A DNA stretch of 64,000 nt from a virus (lineage: Duplodnaviria > Caudoviricetes). The notes under the pieces were generated by a model. The model was given only the letters and a program-made list of their open reading frames with translations, did no database searches and was not told where the DNA came from. The translations under genes and the position numbers were made by a program. The stretch lies in the IMG/VR virus record IMGVR_UViG_3300035101_000015, positions 32,001-96,000 of that record; one strand, given 5' to 3'. Below are positions 52,152 to 55,192 of the stretch, piece after piece. Within the stretch, counting starts at the first letter, position 1. Every line of letters begins with the position of its first letter.

Positions 52152-53339
52152 ATGGCTACATTGGAACAGGTAATCGCCACCTGCCTCATGACTCCGAGGC
52201 ACGACCCCAGGGACGCAGCGTGTGTCTGGGGGTTGCCGCTGAACATCGTGGGGCTCTCTGGAGGCGGGAAGTCCGAGCGCATCGCTCAAGCATGTGCCGC
52301 CGTTGGCCTGCCGCTCTTCGTTGTGTTTCCAGCGTCGAAGCAGCCGGAGGACTTCGGCGGCGCGCCGTTCATGTCAGCAGATGGCATCATCATCGAGTGC
52401 ATTCTCCCTCAAGCCAACAAGCTGCGGGACCTCGGTCAGGGTGTCCTGGCGATTGATGAGCTCAGCACCGCACGTCCTGCAGTCCAGGCGTCGGCGCTGG
52501 GCTTGGTCAACGACCGCCGCGTCGGTGACCATCTACTTCCTCCCAGGGTTCGCGTCGTCACGGCAATGAACCCCACCGAGTACGCCGCCGGTGGCTTCAC
52601 TCTGGAAGCTCCGCTGGCGAACCGCATGATGCACGTCACATACGACATGCCTACCGTGAGTGAGTGGACCGATTGGCTCACTGGGCAACCTCAGCACCAC
52701 CTCGAGAGCGTGGTCAACGCAGAGCAGAAGATTCTGGCAGGCTGGGATGAGCACTGGTCACAACTCCGTGGACTCATGGTTGGGTTCATGGAATCGAACC
52801 AGTCGCAGCTCCACCAGCAGCCCAAACCCGATGACCCAGACGCTAGTGGACCGTGGCGTAGCCCACGCATGTGGCACTGGGCCGGGCGTGGAATCGCTGC
52901 TTCGCGCTGCCTGGGGATGCCTGGCGACATCGAGAACAAGCTCATCGCTGGCTGCGTAGGTGAAGGGGTACTGCCTGAGTGGATTGAGTGGGTCAGCAAG
53001 GCCGACTTACCTCACCCGAGGGACATGCTCCAGAAGAACTGGATGCCGGACACCCAGCGTCTGGACATCACCATGGCCGCACTCACCTCGATGTCGATGT
53101 GGGTCTGCGACATGAAGGACCTGCAGGCGCAGCAGCAGTATGCCATCCCCGCTTGGGGCCTGGTGGACCGTGTGTTCGACGCCGGACTGGCCGACGTCGC
53201 CATGAAGCCAGCGAGCGCGCTGCTCGGCAAGAACCTGGGGCACACCAGCCCCAATCCGAGCTTGAAGCAGGCGGCGCGAGAGGTCATCCTCAAGCTCGGC
53301 CGCAGTGGCTACGCCAAGTTCGCAGGACTCATCCAATGA
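52152..53339 (+). CDS. MoxR-like AAA+ ATPase
   Basis: GLSGGGKS (Walker A), AIDELS (Walker B), AMNP, PLANRM and SPRMW motifs. Confidence 0.85.
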   Translation: MATLEQVIATCLMTPRHDPRDAACVWGLPLNIVGLSGGGKSERIAQACAAVGLPLFVVFPASKQPEDFGGAPFMSADGIIIECILPQANKLRDLGQGVLAIDELSTARPAVQASALGLVNDRRVGDHLLPPRVRVVTAMNPTEYAAGGFTLEAPLANRMMHVTYDMPTVSEWTDWLTGQPQHHLESVVNAEQKILAGWDEHWSQLRGLMVGFMESNQSQLHQQPKPDDPDASGPWRSPRMWHWAGRGIAASRCLGMPGDIENKLIAGCVGEGVLPEWIEWVSKADLPHPRDMLQKNWMPDTQRLDITMAALTSMSMWVCDMKDLQAQQQYAIPAWGLVDRVFDAGLADVAMKPASALLGKNLGHTSPNPSLKQAAREVILKLGRSGYAKFAGLIQ

Positions 53340-54775
53340 GCAAAGCACAACCGACGTACGAGGAGTGTGTCCTCAAGACCAACGACCTACTGGCGAAAGC
53401 CAGGCTCGCGGTGCTGCAAAAAGGGCCGTACTACTCCAGCATCATGTACGCACTCATCCCGGTCTACGTGCCTGGGTTCAGCACCATCGCCGTGACGGAT
53501 GAACTCCACCTCATCGTGGACCCGGTACGCGTGGCGCTCGACCCAGAGTTCAGTGCCGTAGACCAGGACGGCCTACCTCAGAAGCTGGCGGGCACCATCG
53601 TCCATGAATGCAACCACGTCCTTCGGGACATGGAGCGCATCCGTTCCCTAGCCGGAGTGAACAAGGAGCTCGCCAACATCGCAGCCGACCTCCCCATCAA
53701 TGCCGACCTACGAAAGGCCGGCTGGCAGCTACCGGCCTGGGTGGTCTACCCAGACCGGTACGGCTTCCCAGAGGGAGAGACGATGGAACAGTACTTCGAG
53801 CGGCTCATGAAGGACCCGAAGAAGTACATGAAGCAGACCATGCAGATGGTACTCGTCGCCAAGCAGGGCGGCGGTGGCAAGGGGAAGGGCAAAGGAAAGG
53901 GCAAGGGCGGTCAGGACCAGCAACCAGGACAGGGGCAGGGACCTGACAGTGGCCTCGACGTCGGCGCGGGGCAGTGCGGTGGCGTTGCTGGCAACCCGAA
54001 CCCGAAGGAGAACCAGCAGGTGGACCCCAGCAAGAACCCAGGCCGGGGTCCTGCAGAGGTCGACAACGCCAAGCGCAAGACGGCCAGAGATGCCAAGCAG
54101 TACTTCTCTGGCTCAGGCCGTGGTGACTGCCCAGGTTGGGCAGAGGACATCATCAAGTTCAAGAAGCGGCGCGACCGTGACTGGGCGCGTGAGCTTCACT
54201 CGGTGGTACGACGACGCAGCGGCATCATCATGGCTGGTGGTGCCGACTTCTCATTGAGCAGGCCGTCACGACGCTCACTGCTTCGCGATGGATTGCTCCG
54301 ACCCGGTATGGTGGAGCAGCAGCTCACTGCTGCCATCGCCATCGACACATCAGGCTCGATGGGCAAGCAACAACTACAGGCGGCACAGAACACGACCTGC
54401 AACATCATGGAGCAGATTGGGCTGGACACCGTCTGGGTGGTGCAGTGCGATGCACGCGTTCACGGAGATTGGACGCGCACGAGACTTCGAGACGTGTACA
54501 ACATGACCTTCAAGGGGCGTGGCGGGACGGACTTCCGACCCATCTTCGCTCACCTGAAGAAGTTGCGACCGAGGCCGGACCTCATCGCCATCCTGACGGA
54601 CGGTGATGGACCAGCTCCAGCGAAGGCTCCCGTCGGCATCGATACCATCTGGGTCATCGTGCCAACTTCCTACGGGCGACGACCTGCCCCATGGGGGCAC
54701 ATGGTGGTTTGTTCCAACGACCACGGCCTCTCCGACCCGTACTACTTCGACGACGAAGACGAAGATGCCACATGA
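53336..54775 (+). CDS. Metallopeptidase-like + VWA domain protein (DUF2201-type partner of the AAA+ ATPase)
   Basis: HECNH (HExxH), NIAADLPIN, DTSGSM MIDAS, GRGGTDF, LTDG; ATGA overlap with the ATPase gene. Confidence 0.85.
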   Translation: MSKAQPTYEECVLKTNDLLAKARLAVLQKGPYYSSIMYALIPVYVPGFSTIAVTDELHLIVDPVRVALDPEFSAVDQDGLPQKLAGTIVHECNHVLRDMERIRSLAGVNKELANIAADLPINADLRKAGWQLPAWVVYPDRYGFPEGETMEQYFERLMKDPKKYMKQTMQMVLVAKQGGGGKGKGKGKGKGGQDQQPGQGQGPDSGLDVGAGQCGGVAGNPNPKENQQVDPSKNPGRGPAEVDNAKRKTARDAKQYFSGSGRGDCPGWAEDIIKFKKRRDRDWARELHSVVRRRSGIIMAGGADFSLSRPSRRSLLRDGLLRPGMVEQQLTAAIAIDTSGSMGKQQLQAAQNTTCNIMEQIGLDTVWVVQCDARVHGDWTRTRLRDVYNMTFKGRGGTDFRPIFAHLKKLRPRPDLIAILTDGDGPAPAKAPVGIDTIWVIVPTSYGRRPAPWGHMVVCSNDHGLSDPYYFDDEDEDAT

Positions 54776-54907: not shown

Positions 54908-55052
54908 GCAGCAGACCGGAGACTCTGGGTTATCGGTTAGAGCGTTGGGCTCTGCTTCGGCGAGTCCAGAGGTCGCGGGTTCAAGTCCAGCCTCCTTGCC
55001 TCGGCGGGGAGTAGCTCAGTAACAACACCCAGTTTCGTCACTTGTCTGCTGC
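54908..55052 (+). ncRNA. Y RNA (YrlA-like) enclosing a circularly permuted tRNA-like domain opened in the D-loop
   Basis: Terminal stem GCAGCAGAC/GTCTGCTGC with GACCGG/CTTGTC bulged helix. Inside: GGTTAGAGC, a UUCG-capped arm, T-arm GGTTCAAGTCC, closed acceptor CTCCTTGC/GCGGGGAG, then TAGCTCAGT. Confidence 0.8.
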
Positions 55053-55089: not shown

Positions 55090-55151
55090 GAGCGACCGGA
55101 TGGTGTGGGTTATCGCCAACACAGACATCCACATCAATGAACTTGTCGCTC
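55090..55151 (+). ncRNA. Minimal Y-RNA module in the ro60 leader
   Basis: GAGCGACCGGATGGTGTGG-GTTATC...CCACATCA..ACTTGTCGCTC, followed by TTTTT. Confidence 0.7.
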
Positions 55152-55192
55152 TTTTTACCACTTGCTCCGTACGGAGCCGAAAGGAGTTCATC

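What the first reader, a model, noticed from the sequence alone, without database searches (positions are those of the whole stretch)
54908..55052. Circularly permuted tRNA opened in the D-loop and held by a Y stem
The order is D-3' (GGTTAGAGC), UUCG-capped anticodon-position arm, T-arm, loop-closed acceptor, D-5' (TAGCTCAGT). Joining 55020 to 54935 yields TAGCTCAGTGGTTAGAGC, identical to the intact D-arm of the tRNA at 57058-57075. The break falls exactly after GGGTTATC, like the insert boundaries downstream. This resembles a permuted intron-exon arrangement that would give a circular tRNA mimic. It differs from YrlA, where the Ro stem exits at the anticodon arm.
Basis: partly seen in the sequence, partly recalled or inferred. 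Interest (0 to 1): 0.8.

Follow-up and report, generated by a model that had tools for sequence, protein, structure and literature searches.

The report
Y RNA with D-loop-split tRNA mimic
Just upstream of a phage's Ro60 gene lies a small partner RNA (a Y RNA) whose body is a complete tRNA look-alike joined to the Ro60-docking stem through its D-loop; this wiring differs from the published bacterial Y RNAs and recurs, with compensating base changes, beside Ro60 genes in five other sequences.

Summary
Positions 54908-55052 (+), 140 nt upstream of an rsr/Ro60 gene, read in this order: Y stem, D-loop 3' half plus GAGC, UUCG-capped arm, AGGUC, T arm, loop-closed 8-bp acceptor, UA-GCUC-AGU, Y stem.

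A covariance model built from this one sequence and the proposed fold found five more RNAs with the same split. All five lie on the rsr strand within about 600 nt of the gene. Four are high-GC soil contigs whose Ro60 groups with Gaiellaceae, and one is an Anaerolineae MAG. Across the six, 92% of cells pair and 28 of 47 pairs change on both sides. The anticodon-position, T and acceptor helices all covary. The D stem GAGC/GCUC is invariant. MAFFT plus RNAalifold gives the same cloverleaf independently.

It is a Y RNA, but not a YrlA: Rfam gives no YrlA hit, and YrlA opens at the anticodon. A sister phage (80% Ro60 identity) keeps the same Y stem but carries a tRNA module in natural order. GGGUUAUC is the conserved Y-RNA motif, not a splice border, and nothing supports the intron or circular-RNA idea.

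Verdict: new variant of a known kind. Ro60 binding and function are inferred. This scan noted the same stretch in overlapping windows. My look-ups showed only a related D-loop graft on other DNA, not this permutation.

The parts
54908..54930 (+). 5' strand of the Y stem: basal helix GCAGCAGAC, bulged C, the CGGAG Ro60-helix motif, and upper stem CUGGGU
   Evidence: It pairs with 55027-55052 in the MFE fold. In six members, 8 of 14 basal pairs and 5 of 6 upper-stem pairs change on both sides. Rfam's nematode sbRNA model (Y RNA homologues) aligns to this stem at 25.8 bits, below its cut-off.
54931..54934 (+). UAUC linker, the end of the conserved GGGUUAUC Y-RNA motif
   Evidence: The motif occurs 5 times in the window, all in the Ro60 locus. 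It is present in Y RNAs of the other loci.
54935..54943 (+). D-loop 3' half GGUUA (G18, G19, A21) and D-stem 3' strand GAGC
   Evidence: GG, A and GAGC are conserved in all six members. The D stem is 100% paired but invariant.
54945..54969 (+). Anticodon-position arm: 8 bp, a bulged U, 2 bp, and a UUCG tetraloop
   Evidence: The helix is 100% paired in six members, and 4 pairs change on both sides. Caps and lengths vary (UUCG, GCAA, GAAA, 5-7 nt loops).
54970..54974 (+). Variable region AGGUC (C48 position)
   Evidence: It is 5 nt long, as in class I tRNAs. Four of six members read AGGUC and two read AGGCG.
54975..54991 (+). T arm: GCGGG, loop UUCAAGU, CCAGC (one G.A mismatch in the stem)
   Evidence: Four of 5 pairs change on both sides and 96.7% of cells pair. 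The UUCRA T-loop is conserved.
54992..55011 (+). Acceptor stem closed by the 4-nt loop CUCG (8 bp including two G.U); no free CCA end
   Evidence: Seven of 8 pairs change on both sides in six members. The loop is 3-4 nt in five members and 17 nt in L242.
55012..55020 (+). U8-A9, D-stem 5' strand GCUC, and D-loop 5' half AGU (A14, G15, U16)
   Evidence: UAGCUCAG is invariant in all six members. Joined to 54935-54943 it equals the D arm at 57058-57075.
55021..55052 (+). AACAAC linker and 3' strand of the Y stem (ACCCAG ... CACUUGUCUGCUGC)
   Evidence: It pairs with 54908-54930. The CACUUGUC motif is the 3' half of the Ro60-binding helix. It also aligns in the sister phage's second Y RNA to the metazoan Y_RNA model.
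55193..56923 (+). rsr / Ro60 gene, the presumed protein partner
   Evidence: Pfam TROVE 6e-44 and vWA_Ro60 6e-55.

Best explanation
The element is a phage-encoded Y RNA, the small-RNA partner of the Ro60/Rsr ring encoded 140 nt downstream. Its paired ends form the Ro60-docking helix: the GACCGGAG side with a bulged C pairs with the CACUUGUC side. Its large loop folds into a complete tRNA-shaped module with D stem, anticodon-position arm, 5-nt variable region, T arm and acceptor stem. The junction linkers are 2, 1, 5 and 0 nt, as in tRNA. The module joins the docking helix through the D-loop, between nt 16 and G18. Both arm tips are capped by small stable loops, so the RNA can be neither charged nor used for decoding. 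It is a structural tRNA mimic tethered to Ro60.

By analogy with characterised Y RNAs, the module most likely either recruits a tRNA-recognising factor to Ro60 or gates Ro60's RNA-binding surface. The invariant UAGCUCAG...GG.AGAGC D arm suggests that the D stem and elbow are the part that is read, as was proposed for YrlA. It defines a third wiring of tRNA-like Y RNAs, open at the D-loop, beside YrlA (open at the anticodon) and Yrn1 (natural order, open at the acceptor).

Shown: sequence, conserved fold, and linkage to rsr. Inferred: Ro60 binding and the L-shaped tertiary fold. Speculative: the effector.
For: The rsr gene is adjacent on the same strand. The stem matches Y-RNA-type models, below their thresholds. 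Model R1, built from the window sequence plus the proposed fold only, found L142:1057-1191 (64.3 bits), L242:4139-4284 (63.4), L128:767-901 (53.9), L136:278-408 (50.9) and L163:1431-1568 (48.3). All are on the rsr strand and within about 600 nt of rsr.

Covariation: 92.2% of cells pair, 28 of 47 pairs change on both sides, 0 of 500 shuffles reach that, and slid controls give 36-43% paired. RNAalifold on an independent MAFFT alignment predicts the same D stem, anticodon arm, T arm and acceptor hairpin. The MFE folds of L142, L128 and L163 alone give the permuted cloverleaf.

With model R2 the six members score 92-132 bits and everything else scores 60 or less. A regex scan independent of the models finds the same six. 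After the D-loop halves were re-joined in silico, ARAGORN called 5 of 6 tRNA-shaped. U8, A14, G15, G18, G19, A21 and the UUCRA T-loop are conserved.

The published YrlA work supports the idea of a tRNA mimic tethered to Ro60 and an effector that reads the D/T stems and elbow (PMC4201824; 10.1101/312249).
Against: There are no expression, end-mapping or Ro60-binding data. The D stem, the key helix for this topology, is invariant, so it has no covariation of its own. Only six sequences are known, four of them from one Ro60 clade, and the alignment used was fitted to the model. The window's own T stem has a G.A mismatch, and its MFE fold is 3.6 kcal/mol better than the cloverleaf. A helix leaving the D-loop next to G18/G19 could disturb the elbow, and no 3D modelling was possible. 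The class is rare. It was absent from IMG/VR pattern scans, from 151 + 151 sampled genomes, from 401 genomes in the phylum of the Gaiellaceae MAG (Actinomycetota) by pattern, and from 8 cultured actinophage Ro60 loci.
Confidence: 0.85

Rival explanations
1. It is a permuted tRNA precursor. The Y-like stem would be a processing scaffold that is cut and ligated to give a circular or re-ordered tRNA-like product.
For: The gene order mimics the permuted tRNA genes of some algae and archaea, which Wang et al. discuss for YrlA (10.1101/312249). The ends of the RNA are held side by side.
Against: The flanking stem carries the conserved, covarying Ro60-helix motifs expected of a mature Y RNA. There is no conserved 7-nt anticodon loop; the caps are UUCG, GCAA and GAAA. 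The acceptor is closed by a 3-4 nt loop in five of six members. No bulge-helix-bulge is seen at the junction by inspection. The phage record (78% complete) has no RtcB.
Confidence: 0.03
2. The cloverleaf is not the functional fold. The RNA is an ordinary Y RNA whose loop adopts the alternative MFE structure, with GUUGGGCU paired to AGUCCAGC, and merely contains tRNA-derived sequence scraps.
For: The MFE fold of the window sequence is -66.7 against -63.1 kcal/mol for the cloverleaf. AGUCCAG occurs twice, and the T stem has a G.A mismatch.
Against: The T arm, anticodon-position arm and acceptor hairpin all covary in the six members. The alternative helix depends on a duplicated heptamer that I did not see in the other members' sequences. 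Three relatives fold into the cloverleaf by MFE. The junction linkers match tRNA.
Confidence: 0.07
3. It is a non-functional by-product of recombination between tandem tRNA-like genes in a locus full of such modules.
For: The locus holds at least seven Y and tRNA-like modules. The sister phage has a different module in the same Y stem. In L238 the homologous Y RNA has lost the module.
Against: The same split architecture is kept with compensatory changes in at least three separate Ro60 lineages. The acceptor strands pair with each other (7 of 8 pairs covary), which a random fusion of two tRNAs would not give.
Confidence: 0.05

Closest known systems
YrlA (Y RNA-like A; Rfam RF02553; Chen et al. 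2014 PMC4201824; Wang et al. 2018, 10.1101/312249)
   Same: It is a Ro60-linked RNA whose ends form the Ro60 stem and whose loop is a circularly permuted tRNA mimic. The acceptor is loop-closed, the tertiary nucleotides are conserved, and the D-arm sequence UAGCUCA..GG.AGAGC is strongly conserved.
   Different: YrlA is opened at the anticodon loop, so it has no anticodon arm, an intact D arm, and the order V-T-acceptor-D. Here the D-loop is split, a capped anticodon-position arm is present, and the order is D3'-AC-V-T-acceptor-D5'. There is no RF02553 hit on the element even at E up to 10. In four loci a YrlA-type RNA and this type sit side by side.
Deinococcus radiodurans Yrn1 (Chen et al. 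2014)
   Same: It is a Y RNA with tRNA-like features including an anticodon-like arm. The paper shows that the orientation of the tRNA-like parts relative to the Ro60 stem can differ between Y RNAs.
   Different: Yrn1 keeps the natural D-AC-T order and exits at the acceptor position. The sister phage RNA L002:1179-1314 is of that kind (52 bits to RF00005 in natural order). The window's RNA is not.
Circularly permuted tRNA genes of Cyanidioschyzon merolae and some archaea (cited in 10.1101/312249; details from my own knowledge)
   Same: The 3' part of a tRNA is encoded before the 5' part, and the acceptor strands are joined by a short loop.
   Different: Those are precursors processed to working tRNAs with real anticodons. 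Here there is no anticodon, and the flanks are a Ro60-binding helix.
Metazoan Y RNAs and nematode sbRNAs (RF00019, RF01656)
   Same: They share the terminal stem with bulged C, the CCGA/CUUG-type helix and the GGGUUAUC motif.
   Different: Their loops are not tRNA-like.
tRNA-shaped Y RNAs noted by this scan (e1-5761990, e1-5767129; unpublished AI notes)
   Same: They combine a tRNA body with a Ro60-type helix. One note describes the helix grafted into the D-loop, the same attachment point.
   Different: In those the free ends are the tRNA's acceptor ends and the Y helix is loop-closed. Here the free ends are those of the Y helix and the acceptor is loop-closed.

Membership tests
Y RNA (Ro60/Rsr-associated small RNA) | Encoded next to a Ro60/rsr gene | tested here: met
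   It lies 140 nt upstream of rsr on the same strand. The other five members lie within about 600 nt of rsr on the same strand.
Y RNA (Ro60/Rsr-associated small RNA) | The 5' and 3' ends pair into a long stem carrying the conserved Ro60-binding helix (GNCGAA-type 5' motif, bulged C, ACUUG-type 3' strand) | tested here: met
   The stem is predicted and covaries. The motif reads GACCGGAG, with G instead of A at one position. The 3' strand reads CACUUGUC. The stem aligns to RF01656 at 25.8 bits, below the cut-off of 38.
Y RNA (Ro60/Rsr-associated small RNA) | Bound by Ro60 in vivo; a discrete stable transcript | not testable with these tools
   This needs RIP or Northern analysis. The simple promoter/terminator scan found nothing.
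YrlA (RF02553) | Reaches the Rfam gathering score (69 bits) | tested here: not met
   There is no RF02553 match on 54908-55052 even at E up to 10. No family reaches its gathering score on any of the six members.
YrlA (RF02553) | Topology: anticodon-like stem enclosing the variable region, T arm, closed acceptor stem-loop and intact D arm | tested here: not met
   The D arm is split by the Y stem and a capped anticodon-position arm is present.
YrlA (RF02553) | tRNA tertiary-interaction nucleotides and a closed acceptor | tested here: met
   U8, A14, G15, G18, G19, A21 and U54-U55-C56..A58 are conserved, and the acceptor is closed.
tRNA (RF00005) | Contiguous cloverleaf with free acceptor ends and a 7-nt anticodon loop | tested here: not met
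   ARAGORN and Rfam do not call it. The arm is capped by tetraloops. Only after in-silico re-joining do 5 of 6 look tRNA-shaped to ARAGORN.
Permuted tRNA precursor genes | Yields a functional tRNA (anticodon present) through a splicing-type junction | tested here: not met
   There is no conserved anticodon loop. No bulge-helix-bulge was seen at the junction, by inspection only. Processing itself is not testable here.

The most novel reading that the evidence does not exclude
Ro60 ribonucleoproteins use the tRNA body as an interchangeable plug-in that can be wired to the docking helix at three or more points: anticodon, acceptor and D-loop. The wiring is swapped even between sister phages. The D-loop wiring, which leaves both arm tips free and keeps the invariant D arm, would present a different face of the mimic from YrlA. 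That could let one Ro60 ring engage different tRNA-reading partners, for example host tRNA-modifying, tRNA-repair or tRNA-cleaving defence enzymes during infection. This would explain why a YrlA-type RNA and a D-loop-type RNA coexist in the same loci.
Probability: 0.25. Interest if true: 0.75.

Novelty: new variant of a known kind. Interest (0 to 1): 0.6.

Why it matters
The partner that reads the tRNA-like domain of bacterial Y RNAs is still unknown. This is a second, independently wired full tRNA mimic on the same Ro60 stem. It keeps the D-arm sequence and the elbow nucleotides but moves the attachment point and adds a capped anticodon arm. That narrows what the partner can be recognising: the shape plus the D stem and elbow, not the anticodon or acceptor ends, and not a fixed orientation to Ro60. 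It also gives natural 'permutation mutants' for binding and structural work. In addition, current Rfam models miss part of the Y-RNA repertoire, and Y-RNA effector modules are exchanged rapidly, since sister phages differ.

Tried and rejected
- Exact and gapped DNA patterns for the junction in IMG/VR gave one chance hit (L001, unrelated sequence) and then none.
- A single-protein related-loci search in viral contigs found nothing. The alignment-based search was needed.
- The DNA of the 80%-identical relative P0003 and of P0123 could not be fetched. L005 and L006 are the same phage with an identical RNA.
- R2 searches of 151 genomes in the class of the Anaerolineae MAG and 151 in the class of the Gaiellaceae MAG found no new member. 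Only 22 candidates per genome were scored, so this is weak evidence.
- A pattern scan of 401 genomes in the phylum of the Gaiellaceae MAG (Actinomycetota) found none.
- My first loose descriptor script over-called and was dropped.
- The candidate L081:1573 turned out to have an intact D arm and is YrlA-type.
- The mid-scoring model hits (35-60 bits) are YrlA-type or other designs, not D-loop-split.
- The consensus promoter/terminator scan was empty. The conserved upstream TTGTATTT motif is not repeated elsewhere in the phage.
- There is no donor tRNA for the module in the phage genome.
- The Sim et al. 2020 review could not be read.

Full report
**What is there.** The window is part of a 145.8-kb virus record. 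Positions 55193-56923 (+) encode a Ro60/Rsr protein: Pfam TROVE 6e-44 and vWA_Ro60 6e-55. The finding lies 140 nt upstream on the same strand. Read base by base, it consists of:
- a long terminal stem: 54908-54930 pairs with 55027-55052, with a bulged C and small internal loops;
- the linker UAUC;
- GGUUA-GAGC, then one G;
- a 25-nt hairpin capped by UUCG;
- AGGUC;
- a T arm with loop UUCAAGU;
- an 8-bp hairpin closed by CUCG;
- UA-GCUC-AGU;
- the linker AACAAC.

The four helices meet with linkers of 2, 1, 5 and 0 nt in the cyclic order acceptor, D, anticodon, T. That is exactly the tRNA junction. So GAGC/GCUC is the D stem, and the chain break lies in the D-loop between nt 16 and G18. GGGTTATC occurs five times, only in this locus.

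**Is it more than chance?** The sequence alone does not settle this. The D-arm sequence is the commonest one in tRNAs. The window's T stem has a G.A mismatch. The MFE fold (-66.7 kcal/mol) differs from the cloverleaf (-63.1 kcal/mol), because AGUCCAG occurs twice. I therefore looked for relatives.

The same phage in two other assemblies has an identical RNA. I then fetched 240 Ro60 loci from viral, metagenome and genome collections. I searched them with a covariance model made only from the window sequence and the proposed fold (R1).

Five hits stood out at 48-64 bits: L142:1057-1191, L242:4139-4284, L128:767-901, L136:278-408 and L163:1431-1568. All show the same order: UAUC, GG..A-GAGC, capped hairpin, 5-nt linker, T arm, closed acceptor, UAGCUCAG, Y stem.

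The comparative evidence across the six sequences is as follows.
- 92% of cells pair, and 28 of 47 pairs change on both sides. None of 500 shuffles reaches this, and slid controls drop to about 40% paired.
- By helix, the pairs with changes on both sides are 4 in the anticodon-position arm, 4 of 5 in the T arm, 7 of 8 in the acceptor hairpin, and 13 of 20 in the Y stem.
- The D stem is invariant. It is always paired but never informative.
- MAFFT plus RNAalifold, which is not fitted to my structure, predicts the same four helices.
- The MFE folds of L142, L128 and L163 alone give the permuted cloverleaf.
- With a second model (R2), the six score 92-132 bits and nothing else exceeds 60.
- A regex scan independent of the models returns the same six.
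- When I re-joined the D-loop halves in silico, ARAGORN called five of six tRNA-shaped, all with non-standard 'anticodon' loops.

**What it is.** It is a Y RNA. The stem carries the Ro60-helix signature, GACCGGAG with a bulged C opposite CACUUGUC. It aligns, below threshold, to the nematode sbRNA model, and sbRNAs are Y-RNA homologues. The neighbouring minimal Y RNA of the sister phage aligns to the metazoan Y_RNA model.

It is not a YrlA by Rfam's test, since there is no RF02553 match even at E up to 10. It is not one by topology either. YrlA reads variable region, T arm, closed acceptor and intact D arm inside an anticodon-like stem (consensus; PMC4201824; 10.1101/312249). Chen et al. also describe Yrn1, where the order is reversed and the stem exits at the acceptor position. 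The D-loop opening seen here is a third wiring. I did not find it in the papers I could search. The 2020 review was not available.

**Evolution.**
- The sister phage (Ro60 80% identical) has a nearly identical Y stem at the same place. Its loop, however, is a natural-order tRNA-like module scoring 52 bits to RF00005.
- On a Ro60 tree, the four soil contigs fall in a 98%-supported clade with two Gaiellaceae MAGs that lack the element. In one of these, L238:1430-1518, the same Y stem holds a reduced, non-tRNA loop.
- L242 is the only Chloroflexi locus that has the element.
- The trait therefore needs at least four changes on the tree, so modules are swapped or lost often.
- In the four soil loci a YrlA-type RNA lies directly upstream of the D-loop type. 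The two are therefore not simple substitutes for each other.
- The class is rare: 6 of about 246 loci. It was not found in IMG/VR pattern scans, in about 700 sampled genomes, or in 8 cultured actinophage Ro60 loci.

**How it probably works.**
- Shown: the conserved fold and the linkage to rsr.
- Inferred: the terminal helix docks on Ro60, and the module adopts the tRNA L-shape. U8, A14, G15, G18, G19, A21 and the T-loop residues are all kept. Positions 16/17 are the exposed, length-variable part of the D-loop (from general tRNA knowledge), so a helix joined by 4- and 3-8-nt linkers is sterically plausible.
- What the module cannot do: both arm tips are capped by stable loops (UUCG, GCAA, GAAA; 3-4 nt acceptor loops). 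This excludes charging, decoding and ordinary RNase P processing.
- Speculative, as for YrlA: the mimic tethers a tRNA-recognising factor to Ro60 or gates Ro60. The invariant D arm, shared with YrlA, points to the D stem and elbow as the part that is read.

**The splicing or circular-RNA reading.** I found nothing in its favour. The 'boundary' GGGUUAUC is the general Y-RNA motif. The flanks are a functional covarying helix. No anticodon would result. The phage record has no RtcB.

**Limits.** There are no transcript or binding data. The alignment has six sequences from three lineages. The D stem has no covariation. There is no 3D model.

**Verdict.** This is a new variant of a known kind.

Noticed in passing
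L002:1179-1314 (sister phage, Ro60 80% identical): The homologous Y RNA has an almost identical Y stem, but its loop is a tRNA-like module in natural order with a weak acceptor (52 bits to RF00005). The wiring of the tRNA module therefore differs between sister phages.
   Followed up: partly
window 55090-55151 and 56978-57044; L002:1353-1425: These are minimal Y RNAs of about 62-67 nt with GGGUUAUC/GGGUUCUC and no tRNA module. The L002 copy aligns to the metazoan Y_RNA model (26.3 bits) and the nematode sbRNA model (35 bits), both below cut-off.
   Followed up: partly
window 57052-57436 and 57441-57501: Three tandem complete tRNA-like genes with 7-bp acceptors each carry a loop-closed Y-type hairpin with its 3' strand first. 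The hairpin sits at position 26 or in the anticodon region. A fourth such hairpin stands alone. The Rfam YrlA hits here are artefacts of T-arm/D-arm adjacency in the tandem copies.
   Followed up: partly
window 55158-55195: A small reversed Y-type hairpin (CACUUGCUCC...GGAGCCGAAAGGAG) overlaps the rsr ribosome-binding site and is conserved in L002. It is a possible autoregulatory site.
   Followed up: no
window 58018-58171 (-): Two adjacent tRNAs have 9-nt anticodon loops sharing CUAAAG. They lie next to a PTH2-like ORF at 57587-57943 (-); the PTH2 call comes from Pfam annotation of the equivalent ORFs in relatives. They are the only tRNAs ARAGORN finds in the 146-kb phage record.
   Followed up: no
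window 52152-54775 (+): A MoxR-type AAA+ gene (weak AAA_5 hit) and a DUF2201 metallopeptidase-VWA gene lie directly upstream of the Y RNAs. The same order is kept in the 80% relative's contig.
   Followed up: no
L238:1430-1518: In a Gaiellaceae MAG, the Y RNA at the position of the D-loop-split RNAs keeps the same Y stem but has a short non-tRNA loop. The module has been lost or replaced.
   Followed up: partly
L163:1596-1965 and L238:1540-1908: A conserved small ORF of about 120 aa sits between the Y RNAs and rsr in the Gaiellaceae-type loci.
   Followed up: no
L205:4578-4724, L209:4769-4915, L210:4735-4880, L225:4648-4793: Chloroflexi Y RNAs of YrlA wiring appear to be built on a class II-like tRNA, with a GUCCCGAG..GGCAAAGGGG D arm and a long extra arm.
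   Followed up: no
L163:1036-1150 and L098:1045-1162: These Y RNAs have UGGUAGA, a hairpin, a T arm and a closed acceptor, but no D-stem 5' strand. They look like a truncated form of the D-loop-split design.
   Followed up: no
L142, L128, L136, L163: Dense arrays of ordinary tRNA genes flank the Ro60/Y-RNA cluster (up to 8 within 700 nt), so these contigs may themselves be phage.
   Followed up: no
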